Source: a virus
Lineage: Duplodnaviria; Heunggongvirae; Uroviricota; Caudoviricetes
IMG/VR virus record: IMGVR_UViG_2874945390_000009
Length of the DNA: 50,212 nt
Direction: 5' to 3' (one strand)
Numbering within the stretch: position 1 is the first letter of the stretch; every line of letters starts with the position of its first letter. Made by a program: the position numbers. This document shows positions 42,001-48,000 of this stretch, piece after piece.

Positions 42001-45000
42001 CAATAACAACAAATATGCCCTGAACGTTTATTGCGGTTTTATCGCCGGGGATTGTTACAACCTTAATCCACAGGAGGCTTTATTATGACTTTTATAAAGA
42101 ATATGGCATCACACAAGACCGCCAGCCTTATTGCACAATACGGTGAAAATTACATGCATATTGCCTGCTTATTTCTGCGTAAAGCATACGGGAAATAACA
42201 AATGACACATGAACCCATTAATACATATCGTCGCCGTATAGCTGTTGCGGCACTCCATCGAATAAAACGTAAAACAGGTGGTGATCTGCTTATTGTTGAC
42301 CTTCTGGATGGGAACATTGAGGTGTACTGGCAATAGCGGACACTACCATTTGTTCTTTTTTTAAGCAGCCATCTGATGATATTTTTCCCTGAAGGCTGCC
42401 GGGGAGATATTCCCCAGACGAGAGTGACGACGCTGACGATTGTAGAAAATCTCAATGTATTCCCGTATTACTGAGATGGCTTCATCCCGGTTATTAAAAC
42501 GATAGTGGCTCAGGCTCTCATTTTTCAGCGTTCCCCAGAAGCTTTCCATCGGAGCGTTGTCGTAACAGTTACCTTTACGCGACATTGATGTTTTCAGACC
42601 AAACTGCTCCTGTATGACCCGGTAATCGTATGCGCAGTACTGTGAACCTCGATCAGAGTGGTGGATTAGCCCGGCAGGTGGGCGCTGGCTCCTGAGCGCC
42701 ATAAACAGGGCTTTACCTGTCAGCTCTTTTGTCATGCGCTCTCCCATGGCGTAGCCGACAATTTCGCACGTATAAACATCTTTGATGCCAGCGAGGTACA
42801 ACCATCCCTCCTGTGTGGCAACATACGTCAGGTCCGCCACCCAGACCTGATTTGGTGCTGTAGGAGCGAACGTCTGGTTCAGCAGATTTGGCGCAACTGG
42901 CAGATTGTGGTTCGGGTTCGTAGTCGCTCTGAACTTGCGTTTCTGCTTACAGCGTAGCCTTAGCTCCTTACGAAGACGTGCCAGTCGGTCACGACCAACG
43001 ATGATGCCATTCTCTGCCAGCTCCGTCTGGAGCCGCCGGGTTCCATATGTTTCGCGAGTGCGGATATGTGCCACCTTAATCTCCAGTTTTAGCCGCTCAT
43101 CACTTTGTTTTCTGTCTGAGGGTTCATGCTGTACCCAGTTGTAATAACCGCTCCTGGATACACCAAATACCTGACACATCGCTTCAACAGGGAATTGTTG
43201 TCGCCATTGTTCGACTAACGCGTATTTTTCAGCGACTCCTGTGCAAAATACGCTGTTGCTTTTTTTAATATATCTCGCTCAAGGCGAGCTTCATTTAACG
43301 CCTTACGCAGTTGCAGAATTTCAGATTCCAGTTCAGCCACCGTGCGGGAACCAGGAGTACCGAGCCCTTTTCTGGCGGCGGTAACCCATTGTCCTAAAGT
43401 GCCTTCAGGAAGGGATAATCGGGAAGCGCCTTCACTGATCGAAAGTTGATTTTCAAGAACCGTTCTGACAGCTTCGGCTTTGAACTCTTTAGAGTAACGT
43501 TGGGTTTTTCTGCTCATTATTAGCTCCTTCTGATGCCATTCTATTTCAGGAAGGAGTGTCCGTTAAACTCAGGCTACCTCACATTACGACCATAGAAATA
43601 ACAGAACAGTTTATAAACCAGTTGCTGTTGCGCTTTGAAGGTATTACCCGTGGTGAATTGGGTCGAGTGGAGGGTGAAACAGAAATCCGAACTGCATACC
43701 AGAATGCTATCGGGATTAATCAACATACTGAATACCAGGCTGAAACCGGAAAGTTAATTATAGACAACCTTTTACAAGAGGTTATTGATTACGCGAAAGA
43801 AAAATATATCAGCGGAGGAATTAACTGATGGCTAATTTATCCCCTGTATCTGTTGTGCACGAAAAAGTGCAGATCGTTATGACAATTGAAAATGGCCAGG
43901 TAACAGATGTCTGCAAAGTCCGCGATGGAGAGCTGATTGCCAGCATGGATACATTCATACGGCTGGCAGAAAGAGCGGGGTATCAGATAACAGCACCTGC
44001 TCAGGAGGAAACCAGTGACATTAACAGCAACACGAATTCCTGAGTGGGTCCACCAGCAGGCGTTGCTGGTCCTGCGGCGGTACAGATGCCGACGTATATT
44101 CCCGCATCGGATACAGCGCAACGGATATCTCAGTCTGAAGGTTAACCGTCGCTGGCGGCTGTTATCGAAAGACGACGGCCGGAACTGGGAAGTAATGAGT
44201 CATGAACGTTATTCGGGGGAAATAAAGAAATGATCGACAACCGCACCGCCAGCGCCATTGACCAGGCATTACAGAAACATGATACACCCGTCGGCCCGTT
44301 ATTTTTTGTAACACGCCACGGAAGAACAAAAAAATGCCTCACCCGAAAAACGGCAATTCGTTACCTGGCATTCTTTATGACCACCCGCGCTTTTGAACGT
44401 TCAGGATTCCGACAACGCCATCCTGACAAGCGTTTTATCTTCAACGGGAAGAGATATGGAAACGTGGAGAATCAACCACAGAGTATACCCGCGCACACCA
44501 GCGAACAATCAGACGACTGCGCAGACTCATCGCCAGGAAACAGTATACAGAAAAATGGTTCAGAAAATATGACACATGGAGCGCCGGATATTACGAACTG
44601 ATGGCAACAAAACCATTCTGACGTAAACGAAATTAACCATGACGCAATTAAATAAGGCAAGCCGAATACATCAGGAGGACCATGAACATTTATTTCAGAA
44701 TAGTTATATCACTGGCAATTATCGCATGTATTTACGGATTAATCGTTCCGGCCCTCATATCAATGAAGGATACGGTAGCAGTGATTTCTGGCTTTGCTCT
44801 GGCGTGTCTGACCCCGCCCTGCATTTATGCCATTTATAAGGGTCTTTCTTTCCCCGGGAGGGAAAAATGAAAAAAACAATTGCGCTTGTTTTCGCGGTCA
44901 GTCTGGCTGTCTTCGGACTTGTAGGTTGCGATCGCGTTGAACCAGGTAATGTGGGTATCAAAGTCAACAAACTGGGCGACGACAAAGGTGTCGGTGAAGT

Positions 45001-48000
45001 GGTCGGTGTTGGTCGCTACTGGACTGGCTGGAATACTGAAGTTTACATTTTCCCGACCTTCAAGCAAATGAAGACCTACGATGAACCGTTCAGTTTCCAG
45101 ATGAGTGACGGCACAACCATCGGCTATCACATCGGCGTGGCCTACAAAGTTGATCCATCCAAAGTTACCACGGTGTTTCAGACTTACCGCAAAGGCGTGG
45201 ATGACATTACCAACACCGACCTGCGCCAGAAGATCGCCGACGCACTCAATCGGCTGGCCAGCAAAATGACCACCGACAAATTTATTGACGGCGGCAAGTC
45301 TGAACTACTGGATGCCGCACTTAAAGACATTCAGGAAGAGATGACACCCATCGGCATTCAGGTAATGAGCCTCTCTTATGTAGGTAAACCGGAATACCCT
45401 CCAACCGTTATCGACAGCATTAACGCCAAAGTCACGGCAAACCAGAAAACCCTGCAGCGCGAACAGGAAGTCAAGCAACGTGAAGCGGAGGCCAACATGC
45501 TACGTGCGGAAGCTGCCGGACAGGCTGATGCCATTCGAACAAAAGCCCAGGCAGAAGCCGATGCCATTCGTTTACGCGGCGAAGCTCTACGCCAGAACCC
45601 AGGCGTCATGGAGCTGGAAGCCATCAACAAGTGGAACGGTACACTGCCGCAATACATGACCAGTGGTGCCAATACACCATTTATCCAGATTAAATAACTT
45701 ATATGCCCGGCAGGCCGCCGGGCTAAGGGAAATGCAGATGAACACCCAGAATACTCAACCGCAAATAATGAACTATGACCCGAATCTGACGTCATGCGGA
45801 CGCATGGCAAAACAAACCGTTCGATTAACTTTCGGACTATGTGAATACCGCGAAACATTCGAAGTTACTGTCGGCGGCAATCTGACCGGACTGGATGTTA
45901 TCAGTTGCGCTATTGAAAGCCTGTACGCAACGCTGCCTTATGAAGAAGTCGAGGATGAGCGAACAGGGGAAACAGATATCATGGCCACCATTAATATTGG
46001 CGAACTGATATGTCAGGATGAAGACCTGTCCGGAGAGCTCTGGCTTGCCGGGATGCTTATCTCAGCAGAAATTATCAGTATTGAACCCGCTACAAACATA
46101 CGGCTCTGAAGTTCTCACTATTCAGAGAGCAGGAGAAAAAATGTTCGCTTTGATTAATCAGGGACAACTGTATACCGACAGTGCCGGTTACCCGGTAAAA
46201 ATTATTCGCTGCATAAACAACACTGTGTTGTACAGAAGAATGGATGGGCGAACACAGTCAGTAAAAATAAACGATTTCAATGAACTGTTTGAACGGATCG
46301 ATCACCAGGAATACCGACAAATTCTGGCAGAAACAGAGCAGGAAGCTCATCTGAAAAAATTACGGGCCATGAAAAGGAAGTAAAGAATGAATAAAGCGTT
46401 TGAGCTATGGGTACGCCAGCGTTACGGCAATCGCTATGACCTGACGCGAGATGTTTGAGGTAGCCTGAGTTTAACGGACACTCCTTCCTGAAATAGAATG
46501 GCATCAGAAGGAGCTAATAATGAGCAGAAAAACCCAACGTTACTCTAAAGAGTTCAAAGCCGAAGCTGTCAGAACGGTTCTTGAAAATCAACTTTCGATC
46601 AGTGAAGGCGCTTCCCGATTATCCCTTCCTGAAGGCACTTTAGGACAATGGGTTACCGCCGCCAGAAAAGGACTCGGTACTCCTGGTTCCCGCACGGTGG
46701 CTGAACTGGAATCTGAAATTCTGCAACTGCGTAAGGCGTTAAATGAAGCTCGCCTTGAGCGAGATATATTAAAAAAAGCAACAGCGTATTTTGCACAGGA
46801 GTCGCTGAAAAATACGCGTTAATCGAACAATGGCGACAACAATTTCCCATTGAAGCGATGTGTCAGGTATTTGGTGTATCCAGGAGCGGTTATTACAACT
46901 GGGTACAGCATGAACCCTCAGACAGAAAACAAAGTGATGAGCGGCTAAAACTGGAGATTAAGGTGGCACATATCCGCACTCGCGAAACATATGGAACCCG
47001 GCGGCTCCAGACGGAGCTGGCAGAGAATGGCATCATCGTTGGTCGTGACCGACTGGCACGTCTTCGTAAGGAGCTAAGGCTACGCTGTAAGCAGAAACGC
47101 AAGTTCAGAGCGACTACGAACCCGAACCACAATCTGCCAGTTGCGCCAAATCTGCTGAACCAGACGTTCGCTCCTACAGCACCAAATCAGGTCTGGGTGG
47201 CGGACCTGACGTATGTTGCCACACAGGAGGGATGGTTGTACCTCGCTGGCATCAAAGATGTTTATACGTGCGAAATTGTCGGCTACGCCATGGGAGAGCG
47301 CATGACAAAAGAGCTGACAGGTAAAGCCCTGTTTATGGCGCTCAGGAGCCAACGCCCACCTGCCGGGCTAATCCACCACTCTGATCGAGGTTCACAGTAC
47401 TGCGCATACGATTACCGGGTCATACAGGAGCAGTTTGGTCTGAAAACATCAATGTCGCGTAAAGGTAACTGTTACGACAACGCTCCGATGGAAAGCTTCT
47501 GGGGAACGCTGAAAAATGAGAGCCTGAGCCACTATCGTTTTAATAACCGGGATGAAGCCATCTCAGTAATACGGGAATACATTGAGATTTTCTACAATCG
47601 TCAGCGTCGTCACTCTCGTCTGGAGAATATCTCCCCGGCAGCCTTCAGGGAAAAATATCATCAGATGGCTGCTTAAAAAAAGAACAAATGGTAGTGTCCG
47701 CTATTGCCAGTACACCTCAGTTGACGGTTTCTACTGTCGTGAAATTGTGAAACGAATGTTTGAAGTGTGGTGCCACTGCCGTGGGCTGAGTGTTGTGTGA
47801 GGTAATGCATGGGCAATGTGATTCAACTGGCTCCCAATGAATGGGTTTGTGAAAGCGTTCTTATCGCAATTACCGGGCTCAAACCAGGCACAATTCTCCG
47901 AGCCCGGAAAGAATGCTGGATGGTAGGAAGAGAGTATATTCACGTATCACCAGACGGTAATCCAAAGCCATCCAGCGAATGTATGTATAACAGAAAAGCA

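What the first reader, a model, noticed from the sequence alone, without database searches (positions are those of the whole stretch)
43828..46383. Early-left cluster of unknown genes with an SPFH lipoprotein and a small membrane partner
The plus-strand early-left operon has no recognisable recombination, kil or cIII genes. It holds seven small unknown ORFs, including a 62-aa two-helix membrane protein whose stop overlaps the start of a 276-aa SPFH/Band-7 lipoprotein. Host SPFH proteins (HflK/HflC) control FtsH, which degrades lambda CII, and phage cIII occupies this operon position in lambda. A phage-encoded SPFH protein here could therefore modulate FtsH or the membrane, or act in superinfection exclusion.
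Basis: partly seen in the sequence, partly recalled or inferred. Interest (0 to 1): 0.6.

Follow-up and report, generated by a model that had tools for sequence, protein, structure and literature searches.

The report
Phage SPFH lipoprotein with membrane partner
A decayed Shigella prophage carries a real two-gene unit, a tiny two-helix membrane protein plus a lipid-anchored SPFH scaffold protein; the pair is common in temperate and purely lytic phages, its job is untested, and the proposed link to lysogeny control through FtsH is unlikely.

Summary
At 44682-44870 a 62-aa two-helix membrane protein ends in an ATGA overlap with a 276-aa lipoprotein (44867-45697). That lipoprotein is a clear SPFH/Band-7 protein (Pfam E=6e-31; AF2 pLDDT 92.7; best folds are prohibitin, HflK/C, erlin and stomatin cages).

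The cluster belongs to a phiP27-like prophage at yecE. It is bracketed by two independently inserted IS600 copies, and int is split by IS1. An IS-free relative has the same gene order, so the lack of exo/bet/kil/cIII is native.

The other "unknown" ORFs are common phage families: ParE-like, DUF5406, DUF4222 and several PHROGs. One is frameshifted and two are cut by IS600.

The pair is a mobile cassette. It occurs in 510 of 5426 E. coli genomes and in 385 of 50,697 phage records, including lytic N4-like and rV5-like phages. About 18 of the 150 listed cluster representatives are natural partner-SPFH fusions.

My reading is an early-expressed SPFH dome on the periplasmic face of the inner membrane, built with its hairpin partner. 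Its role is probably envelope-level competition or protection during lytic growth, not cIII-like control of FtsH. No functional study was found.

The parts
40139..40834 (+). CI-type repressor (HTH plus S24 peptidase). It is on the same strand as the cluster and upstream of it.
   Evidence: Pfam Peptidase_S24 E=4e-17 and HTH_3.
40846..40862 (+). Terminator-like hairpin with a T-run just after the repressor gene.
   Evidence: Consensus scan; sequence read.
40886..40949 (+). Candidate early-left promoter, TTGACA-17-TAATAT at 40898-40926. It is flanked by two ATCAA-N7-TTGAT palindromes at 40886-40902 and 40933-40949. A third copy of the motif lies in the cI/cro intergenic region at 40099-40115.
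   Evidence: Promoter scan, 10 of 12 matches. All three window-wide matches to the palindrome lie in the immunity region. Repressor control is inferred, not shown.
40980..41528 (+). First gene of the operon: a 182-aa HTH protein in PHROG 4836, labelled 'CII-like regulator'.
   Evidence: Pfam HTH_3 E=8e-11; phrog_4836 E=7e-78.
42318..43581 (-). IS600 copy 1 (1264 bp, 3-bp target duplication CAT), inserted in the phrog_1737 gene. It lies between the promoter and the cluster.
   Evidence: BLAST against the IS-free prophage L001 and against the other copy.
43582..43828 (+). 3' part of the IS600-disrupted phrog_1737 gene. Its 5' part is at 42202-42317.
   Evidence: PHROG match to profile positions 31-117 only. 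The intact 119-aa gene in L001 matches positions 2-117.
43828..44043 (+). 71-aa ORF of unknown function (phrog_340). It overlaps the next gene by 29 nt.
   Evidence: phrog_340 E=5e-25.
44015..44233 (+). 72-aa protein with a ParE-like toxin domain.
   Evidence: Pfam PF24732 E=7.4e-18. RefSeq calls it 'ParE family toxin-like protein'.
44230..44601 (+). Frameshifted remnant of a 130-aa phrog_1886 gene, caused by a 1-nt deletion near 44451.
   Evidence: PHROG match stops at profile position 74 of 135. Alignment with the intact copy shows the deletion.
44682..44870 (+). 62-aa two-helix inner-membrane hairpin (N-in, C-in). It carries the conserved P-x-L-I-S...D-T motif at the periplasmic turn and is the partner of the SPFH protein.
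   Evidence: Hydropathy, charges and RBS. phrog_1130 E=2e-23. Present upstream of SPFH in 79 of 79 close loci and about 90 of 111 diverse loci. Occurs fused to SPFH in about 18 representative clusters.
44867..45697 (+). 276-aa SPFH/Band-7 prolipoprotein. Cys21 is the lipidation site, and Asp22 is the inner-membrane retention signal in E. coli. The mature protein is an SPFH domain, a 65-residue helix, a short helix and a tail with the KWNGxLP motif.
   Evidence: Pfam E=6e-31. AF2 pLDDT 92.7. Foldseek best matches are prohibitin, HflK/C, erlin, stomatin, flotillin and QmcA. Lipobox.
45738..46109 (+). DUF5406 protein (123 aa).
   Evidence: Pfam PF17400 E=1e-20; phrog_3409.
46141..46383 (+). DUF4222 protein (80 aa).
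   Evidence: Pfam PF13973 E=3e-16; phrog_285.
46387..46455 (+). 5' part of a 48-aa phrog_3871 ORF cut by IS600 copy 2.
   Evidence: Comparison with L001 11806-11952.
46456..47719 (+). IS600 copy 2 (1264 bp, target duplication GTT), inverted relative to copy 1.
47809..48045 (+). Excisionase.
   Evidence: Pfam DUF1233 E=1e-32; phrog_539.
48101..50212 (+). Tyrosine integrase split by an IS1 copy at 48363-49152.
   Evidence: ORFs; BLAST against L001 and IS1 ends.

Best explanation
The core of the finding is a self-contained two-gene phage accessory cassette.

Components. Gene 1 makes a 62-aa hairpin with two transmembrane helices, both ends in the cytoplasm, and a conserved P-x-L-I-S...D-T turn facing the periplasm. 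Gene 2, translationally coupled to it, makes a prolipoprotein. After signal peptidase II cleavage the protein is lipid-anchored at Cys21. Asp at +2 keeps it on the outer leaflet of the inner membrane.

Assembly (inferred from the fold). The mature protein has the full architecture of cage-forming SPFH proteins. It most likely oligomerises into a closed ring or dome on the periplasmic face of the inner membrane, as HflK/C does. The hairpin partners would supply the transmembrane part that the lipid anchor lacks.

Expression (inferred). In intact relatives the cassette is transcribed with early genes from a promoter just downstream of cI. That promoter carries repressor-operator-like palindromes, so the cassette is probably silent in the lysogen and made early in lytic growth. 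In this window an IS600 copy sits between promoter and cassette, so the copy here may be poorly expressed.

Role (inferred, about 0.3). The dome fences off patches of inner membrane in the infected cell. This would protect the cell envelope, most plausibly by blocking genome entry of superinfecting phages, as other early or prophage inner-membrane and lipoprotein exclusion proteins do. A cIII-like effect on the lysogeny decision through FtsH is less likely.

Shown versus inferred. Shown: gene structure, SPFH identity, lipobox, conservation and fusion of the pair, phage-wide distribution. Inferred: oligomeric cage, partner contact, repressor control, biological role.
For: Identity and fold:
- Pfam Band_7 E=6e-31.
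- AF2 pLDDT 92.7, with an SPFH domain, a helix at 179-243 and a second helix at 245-255.
- Full-length Foldseek matches to prohibitin, HflK/C, erlin, stomatin, flotillin and QmcA cages.

Topology:
- Lipobox LVGC followed by Asp22, and charges on the hairpin.
- C21-D22-R23 is invariant in the enterobacterial copies.

Partnership:
- ATGA overlap between the two genes.
- The partner lies upstream in 79 of 79 close and about 90 of 111 diverse viral loci.
- The partner is also upstream in genomes from Enterobacterales, Sutterella, Dyella, Luteibacter and Alcaligenes. Epibacterium ulvae and a Ruegeria phage show the same arrangement.
- About 18 natural fusions align colinearly with the separate pairs and keep the lipobox Cys.
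- One fusion is predicted as three transmembrane helices followed by SPFH, pLDDT 90.

Early expression:
- Promoter and palindromes downstream of cI.
- The same position downstream of an S24 repressor in prophages of R. palustris, Alcaligenes and Salmonella. In Salmonella the pair lies between the ssDNA-binding and PolA genes.
- In the early operon of P2-like phage P88.
- Among the RNA polymerase, dUTPase and replication genes of N4-like Pylas.

Accessory, competition-type behaviour:
- Patchy presence: 510 of 5426 E. coli genomes and 385 of 50,697 phage records.
- Present in lambdoid, P2-like, P1-like and lytic phages.
- Partner and SPFH alleles are reshuffled. Against the window copy, P88 is 19% identical in the partner and 96% in mature SPFH; the Salmonella copy is 61% and 54%.
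Against: - No experiment bears on the role, and no oligomer or complex could be modelled with these tools.
- PADLOC has no match, so nothing links the pair to a known defence or exclusion family.
- It is unclear how domes covering only patches of membrane would block DNA entry.
- Some subfamilies lack the two-helix partner: Bruynoghevirus, SunLIRen, phiCbK-like and Cytophagales MAGs.
- The +2 residue is not Asp in many homologues, so inner-membrane retention is not universal.
- A prophage SPFH protein of Pasteurella was detected in lysogen cells and in outer-membrane vesicles (PMC9872710). If it belongs to this family, that argues against strict repression and against strict inner-membrane location.
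Confidence: 0.5

Rival explanations
1. FtsH modulator. The phage SPFH dome mimics HflK/C, competes with it or co-assembles with it. This changes FtsH access to substrates and stabilises phage regulators, such as the CII-like HTH protein encoded at the head of the same operon. It would be the functional counterpart of lambda cIII.
For: - The closest characterised sequence relatives are HflC and HflK (NCBIfam E=5e-6 and 5e-5; PDB HflK E=5e-4).
- The predicted orientation is periplasmic, as in HflK/C.
- The operon position is analogous to cIII, and the operon starts with a phrog_4836 'CII-like regulator'.
- In several proteobacterial prophages the pair lies between cI and int.
Against: - The pair is present in obligately lytic phages, which make no lysogeny decision. 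The same objection is published in PMC8540360.
- Scores are far below the HflK and HflC equivalog cut-offs, and identity to HflK/C chains is only about 17%.
- It is a single SPFH gene with its own membrane partner, not a K/C pair.
- It is also found in P2-like and P1-like phages, whose lysogeny control does not use CII.
Confidence: 0.15
2. Membrane-maintenance or lysis-timing factor. The dome and hairpin stabilise the inner membrane or the proton-motive force of the infected cell until programmed lysis. Flotillin, YdjI and PspA-type systems work this way. Alternatively the dome sequesters phage or host membrane proteins to delay premature lysis.
For: - SPFH scaffolds are generally linked to membrane organisation and stress. 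One example is B. subtilis YdjI with PspA (PMC8581546, listed).
- The pair is co-expressed with replication-phase genes in many lytic and temperate phages.
- A general need of this kind would explain the very wide host and phage range.
Against: - Distribution is patchy even within genera, for example Bruynoghevirus and P1-like or P2-like phages. This fits a dispensable competitive function better than a general physiological one.
- The pair is never located in the lysis cassette.
- No experiment exists.
Confidence: 0.2
3. Lysogenic-conversion lipoprotein. The protein is made in the lysogen, reaches the cell surface or vesicles and benefits the host as a virulence or immune-stimulating factor.
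For: The prophage-encoded SPFH protein PM0222 of Pasteurella multocida was detected in wild-type cells and in outer-membrane vesicles. It activates TLR1/2, and its deletion attenuates virulence in mice (PMC9872710).
Against: - I could not check whether PM0222 belongs to this subfamily.
- Any triacylated lipoprotein stimulates TLR1/2.
- Asp at +2 predicts inner-membrane retention here.
- The gene lies inside early operons and occurs in lytic phages.
- No sigma-70-like promoter was found directly upstream of the pair.
Confidence: 0.05

Closest known systems
HflK/HflC-FtsH complex of E. coli
   Same: SPFH domain followed by a long coiled-coil helix and a C-terminal cap segment. It is predicted to face the periplasm from the inner membrane. 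HflK and HflC are the best sequence matches among characterised proteins.
   Different: - About 17% identity, and far below the equivalog cut-offs.
- One gene rather than two paralogues.
- A lipid anchor instead of an N-terminal transmembrane helix.
- A dedicated 62-aa hairpin partner.
- Phage-borne.
- FtsH binding is untested.
SPFH-NfeD operons (QmcA-YbbJ, YqiJ-YqiK, archaeal stomatin-STOPP)
   Same: An SPFH scaffold gene is translationally or operonically coupled to a small membrane-protein gene. The QmcA cage is a fold match (8z5g).
   Different: - The partner has no NfeD or OB-fold domain and is too short to hold one.
- QmcA and YqiK face the cytoplasm, whereas this protein is exported.
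- The partner family is defined by a P-x-L-I-S turn motif, not by NfeD.
Envelope-level superinfection exclusion proteins. Papers listed: T4 Spackle (PMC7677548), P22 SieA (PMC10883804), T5 exclusion lipoprotein (PMC9586334). From my own knowledge, not checked here: T4 Imm, HK97 gp15, the name Llp for the T5 protein, TP-J34 Ltp.
   Same: Small inner-membrane proteins, or lipoproteins or periplasmic proteins, encoded by dispensable and horizontally mobile phage genes that are expressed early or from the prophage. This is a resemblance in kind only.
   Different: No sequence or fold relationship. The 62-aa partner has no Pfam hit, which includes the Imm family, and there is no PADLOC hit. None of the known exclusion proteins is an SPFH scaffold.
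PM0222 of the Pasteurella multocida prophage island (PMC9872710)
   Same: A prophage-encoded HflK/C-like SPFH protein of 25-35 kDa.
   Different: It was studied only as a host-directed virulence factor.

Membership tests
SPFH / Band 7 superfamily (Pfam PF01145) | Profile match above the curated gathering score. | tested here: met
   108.2 bits against a cut-off of 23.6, E=6.3e-31, residues 23-209.
SPFH / Band 7 superfamily (cage-forming members) | SPFH domain followed by a long coiled-coil helix and a C-terminal segment, as in solved cages. | tested here: met
   AF2 pLDDT 92.7 with helices at 179-243 and 245-255. Foldseek alignments of 250-300 columns to prohibitin, HflK/C, erlin, stomatin, flotillin and QmcA. 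Oligomerisation itself was not tested.
HflK / HflC | Reaches the NCBIfam equivalog score for HflK or HflC. | tested here: not met
   HflC 25.5 bits against a cut-off of 134.4; HflK 22.8 against 159.4.
HflK / HflC | Two adjacent paralogous SPFH genes, each with an N-terminal transmembrane anchor. | tested here: not met
   There is a single SPFH gene. Its N-terminus is a lipoprotein signal peptide with lipobox LVGC.
HflK / HflC | Physical association with the FtsH protease and modulation of it. | not testable with these tools
   Needs pull-down or substrate-stability assays, or multimer modelling, none of which was available.
SPFH-NfeD operon | The partner carries an NfeD or OB-fold domain (PF01957). 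| tested here: not met
   The 62-aa partner has no Pfam hit at E<=0.1 and is too short for the domain.
Bacterial lipoprotein retained in the inner membrane | Lipobox [LVI][ASTVI][GAS]C after an n-region and an h-region, with Asp at +2. | tested here: met
   MKK, hydrophobic core, L18-V-G-C21, D22. C-D-R is invariant in five enterobacterial copies. Lipidation and sorting have not been tested experimentally.
Lambda CIII (FtsH inhibitor) | A small protein matching the Lambda_CIII family in the early-left operon. | tested here: not met
   No such Pfam or PHROG hit for any ORF between cI and xis.
Known anti-phage defence systems (PADLOC-DB 2.0) | Match to any component model. | tested here: not met
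   No hits for any of the eight cluster proteins at E<=0.1.
Phage 2TM-partner plus SPFH cassette (family defined here) | A two-helix ORF with a P-x-[LM]-[IV]-S turn motif that ends at or overlaps the start of an SPFH gene carrying a C-terminal KW(D/N)GxLP motif. | tested here: met
   The window pair has LIVPALISMKDT and INKWNGTLP. The same features appear in alignments A1, A4 and A6.

The most novel reading that the evidence does not exclude
The hairpin-plus-SPFH pair is an undescribed, phage-wide class of envelope device. It would be a lipid-anchored periplasmic SPFH dome whose transmembrane ring is supplied by a separate hairpin protein. In the fused forms this hairpin would be released from a three-helix precursor by signal peptidase II. 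Both lytic and temperate phages would use the device early in infection to shut the inner membrane to competing phages or to membrane-targeting host defences.
Probability: 0.25. Interest if true: 0.7.

Novelty: new variant of a known kind. Interest (0 to 1): 0.42.

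Why it matters
SPFH scaffolds are known as cages that control membrane proteases and microdomains, but no role is known for the many phage-encoded ones. A 2026 paper still calls their presence in phages unexplained (PMC13239085).

This work shows four things about the phage version:
- It comes with a conserved, sometimes fused, two-helix partner.
- It is exported and lipid-anchored.
- It sits in early operons.
- It spans lytic and temperate phages of many Gram-negative hosts.

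That turns a vague annotation into a defined two-gene unit that can be cloned and tested for exclusion, FtsH effects or membrane protection.

For this particular window the stakes are low. The copy lies in an IS-riddled, integrase-dead Shigella prophage and is identical to a protein whose 90%-identity cluster holds 1366 member sequences.

Tried and rejected
- **Deletion or inversion by IS600.** I asked whether the two inverted IS600 copies had deleted recombination genes or inverted the cluster. They had not. Alignment to an IS-free prophage is colinear, and each IS has its own 3-bp target duplication.
- **NfeD or T4 Imm identity for the partner.** Rejected; the partner has no Pfam hit.
- **Membership of a known defence system.** Rejected; PADLOC is empty.
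- **The pair in Vi01-like phage PhiSH19.** Its SPFH gene lies next to a gene annotated 'superinfection exclusion protein'. Rejected as a homologue of this pair: that neighbour is a soluble acidic protein, and the SPFH belongs to a different subfamily.
- **Own promoter for the pair.** None was found in the 81-bp spacer upstream of the pair.
- **Distant genome searches.** Searches with diverse alignments failed because no block was conserved enough. A narrower alignment worked.
- **Structure of the concatenated window pair.** Only secondary structure and confidence are returned, so partner-SPFH contacts could not be read.
- **Literature.** Seven searches found no functional study of phage SPFH proteins.
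- **P. aeruginosa SPFH paper.** The 2026 paper (PMC13086221) does not mention phages.

Full report
**What is in the window.**
- ORF listing confirms seven + strand ORFs between 43828 and 46383.
- The 62-aa ORF (44682-44870) has two hydrophobic segments and a strong AGGAGG ribosome-binding site. Its charges place both termini in the cytoplasm and the short SMKDT loop in the periplasm.
- Its stop overlaps the start of the 276-aa ORF (44867-45697) as ATGA.
- The 276-aa protein begins MKK, then a hydrophobic core, then L-V-G-C21-D22. This is a canonical lipobox with the Asp+2 that retains lipoproteins in the E. coli inner membrane (the sorting rule is established knowledge).
- It matches Pfam Band_7 at E=6e-31 and PHROG 200 'lipoprotein'. 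The small protein matches PHROG 1130 'membrane protein'.

**The other ORFs.**
- They are not anonymous: phrog_340, a ParE-like toxin domain (PF24732, E=7e-18), phrog_1886, DUF5406 and DUF4222.
- The true starts of the last two genes are 45738 and 46141.
- The phrog_1886 gene is a pseudogene. A 1-nt deletion near 44451 shifts the frame relative to the intact 130-aa copy.

**Surroundings.**
- The exact protein is the one annotated in Shigella boydii.
- The cluster is bracketed by two inverted IS600 copies, at 42318-43581 (- strand) and 46456-47719 (+ strand). The integrase is split by IS1 at 48363-49152.
- Alignment to an IS-free phiP27-like prophage at yecE in E. coli O39 (L001) is colinear. 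Each IS600 has its own 3-bp target duplication (CAT and GTT). These are therefore simple insertions that cut the first and last small genes, with no deletion and no inversion.
- L001 has the same order. It runs repressor, HTH protein, small ORFs, ParE-like, phrog_1886, hairpin, SPFH, DUF5406, DUF4222, small ORF, xis, int. The absence of exo/bet/gam, kil and cIII is thus native to this phage type.

**Likely transcription.**
- Upstream lies an S24-type CI repressor (40139-40834) followed by a terminator-like hairpin.
- Next comes the best sigma-70 match of the region, TTGACA-17-TAATAT at 40898-40926.
- That promoter is flanked by two ATCAA-N7-TTGAT palindromes. The only other match in the 50-kb window lies in the cI/cro intergenic region.
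- I infer a repressor-controlled early-left promoter. This is not shown.
- The first gene behind it is an HTH protein in PHROG 4836, 'CII-like regulator'.
- No promoter-like site precedes the hairpin gene itself.
- In this window IS600 copy 1 lies between promoter and cluster, so expression here may be impaired.

**What the SPFH protein is.**
- With a 103-sequence alignment, AlphaFold2 gives pLDDT 92.7. The model has a signal helix and an SPFH domain that starts directly at Cys21. These are followed by one 65-residue helix (179-243), a short helix and a tail.
- Foldseek aligns the whole length to the protomers of solved SPFH cages: prohibitin, HflK/C, erlin, stomatin, flotillin and QmcA.
- By sequence the nearest characterised proteins are HflC and HflK. 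Even so, it scores 25.5 and 22.8 bits against cut-offs of 134.4 and 159.4, with about 17% identity.
- It is therefore a genuine cage-type SPFH protein but not an HflK or HflC orthologue.

**The pair is a conserved, mobile cassette.**
- The same hairpin-plus-SPFH pair is found in phiP27 and Stx2 phages, in the early operon of P2-like P88, in P1-like phage-plasmids and in Hendrixvirinae phage Fraca.
- It is present in 510 of 5426 complete E. coli genomes, with 172 places on plasmids. It is also present in 479 IMG/VR contigs and 385 of 50,697 GenBank phage records.
- A search of 1.8 billion cluster representatives finds 225 clusters at E<1e-30 and 3007 at E<1e-3.
- Of the 142 full-length listed representatives, 88 passed a strict test for a lipobox Cys a few residues before the first strand. 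Several more that my rule missed also show one. They also share a C-terminal KW(D/N)GxLP motif.

**Natural fusions.**
- About 18 of the 150 listed representatives are natural fusions.
- Each has an N-terminal two-helix hairpin with the same P-x-L-(I/V)-S turn motif. A basic cytoplasmic linker follows, then a third hydrophobic helix that keeps the lipobox Cys, then SPFH.
- The fusions align colinearly with concatenated separate pairs.
- One fusion (P0152) is predicted as three transmembrane helices followed by SPFH at pLDDT 90.
- One fusion is a real annotated gene in a Rhodopseudomonas palustris prophage.

**How often the partner is present.**
- The separate partner lies upstream of SPFH in 79 of 79 testable close viral loci and in roughly 90 of 111 diverse viral loci.
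- It also lies upstream in genomes of Enterobacterales, Sutterella, Dyella, Luteibacter and Alcaligenes. The same is true of Epibacterium and a Ruegeria phage.
- Some subfamilies lack it: Bruynoghevirus, SunLIRen, phiCbK-like and Cytophagales MAGs.
- Partner and SPFH alleles are reshuffled. P88 is 19% identical in the partner and 96% in mature SPFH. A Salmonella prophage is 61% and 54%. DNA similarity to P88 and P1-like phages starts at the lipobox codon.
- Whatever contact exists must therefore rest on the conserved motif rather than on allele-specific fit.

**Where and when it is used.**
- In prophages of R. palustris, Alcaligenes and Salmonella the pair lies downstream of an S24 repressor, on the same strand, a few genes before integrase. 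In Epibacterium it likewise lies a few genes before integrase, but I saw no S24 repressor there. In Salmonella it sits between an ssDNA-binding gene and DNA polymerase A.
- In virulent N4-like Pylas it sits among the RNA polymerase, dUTPase and replication genes.
- It also occurs in rV5-like TH18 and in a 147-kb Ruegeria phage.
- SPFH relatives occur in Ounavirinae, Bruynoghevirus, phiCbK-like, Lak and crAss-like phages.
- This points to a function in the early or middle phase of lytic growth, independent of lysogeny.

**Mechanism.**
- Well supported: an exported, lipid-anchored, cage-type SPFH protein that works with a cytoplasm-in/cytoplasm-in hairpin.
- Inferred: it forms an HflK/C-like dome on the periplasmic face of the inner membrane, with the hairpins as its transmembrane ring.
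- Biological role, my estimates:
  - envelope-level competition or protection in the infected cell, most plausibly exclusion of superinfecting genomes, about 0.3;
  - membrane maintenance or lysis timing, about 0.2;
  - FtsH modulation, about 0.15;
  - lysogenic-conversion lipoprotein, about 0.05.
- The exclusion reading rests on the early timing, the inner-membrane and periplasmic location, the patchy distribution and the recombination pattern.

**Weighing FtsH and conversion.**
- The FtsH idea draws on the remote HflK/C similarity, the shared topology and the cIII-like position.
- It is weakened by the presence of the pair in lytic, P1-like and P2-like phages, by the single-gene architecture and by the dedicated partner.
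- It was already proposed and questioned on the same grounds in PMC8540360.
- A Pasteurella prophage SPFH protein was reported in lysogen cells and vesicles as a TLR1/2 agonist (PMC9872710). I could not verify that it belongs to this subfamily.

**Known or new.**
- PADLOC has no match.
- Seven literature searches found no functional work. A 2026 phage paper states that the reason for SPFH genes in phages is unclear.
- RefSeq already annotates the gene as 'SPFH domain-containing protein', and older records call it 'putative serine protease' or 'lipoprotein'.
- As a sequence feature the finding is ordinary and common.
- As biology it is an uncharacterised variant of the SPFH-plus-small-partner theme. 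It differs from SPFH-NfeD and from HflK/C in anchor, partner and carrier.

**Verdict.** Interest is moderate for the module as a class and low for this IS-damaged copy.

Noticed in passing
window 42318-43581 (-) and 46456-47719 (+): Two inverted IS600 copies, 99.4% identical, bracket the cluster like a composite transposon. Each has its own 3-bp target duplication (CAT, GTT), and the flanks are colinear with an IS-free prophage. They are therefore independent insertions.
   Followed up: yes
window 48363-49152: An IS1 copy splits the integrase gene. It is 790 bp rather than 768 bp, and the ORF translations show a short internal duplication in insB (repeated YDRIRRTV). The prophage is probably locked in place.
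   Followed up: partly
window 43828-44233: A 72-aa ParE-like toxin-domain ORF overlaps a preceding 71-aa phrog_340 ORF by 29 nt. This could be a miniature toxin-antitoxin pair inside the early operon.
   Followed up: no
window 44230-44601 (about 44451): A 1-nt deletion frameshifts the phrog_1886 gene. The closest E. coli relative (FDAARGOS_944, L002) carries a different frameshift in an A-run of the same gene, so the gene is decaying independently in both.
   Followed up: yes
window 40886-40949 and 40099-40115: All three matches in the window to the palindrome ATCAA-N7-TTGAT lie in the immunity region. Two flank a strong promoter downstream of cI and one lies between cI and cro. They are candidate repressor operators.
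   Followed up: partly
window 40980-41528: The first gene behind that promoter is an HTH protein in PHROG 4836, annotated 'CII-like regulator'. It sits on the cI side of the immunity region rather than the cro side.
   Followed up: no
window 45705-45723: A GC-rich hairpin (GCCCGGCAGGCCGCCGGGC) lies directly after the SPFH stop codon and has no T-run. In strain FDAARGOS_944 an IS600 is inserted just upstream of this point and truncates the SPFH C-terminus.
   Followed up: no
window 36764-38626 (-): A 620-aa ORF combines an Ash domain and a Rha domain. In the relative L001 these domains are separate ash-family and Rha genes.
   Followed up: no
proteins P0152, P0160, P0163, P0167, P0195, P0196, P0211, P0232; P0316 at L105 6001-7065: Natural fusions of the hairpin partner to the SPFH protein keep the lipobox cysteine after the third helix. 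This suggests a polytopic precursor that signal peptidase II could cut into a three-helix fragment and a mature lipoprotein.
   Followed up: partly
L113 (Salmonella phage PhiSH19) 641-1958: A Vi01-like lytic phage encodes a different SPFH lipoprotein subfamily (LLSGC lipobox). It lies next to a gene annotated 'superinfection exclusion protein', which turns out to be a soluble acidic protein and not a membrane hairpin.
   Followed up: yes
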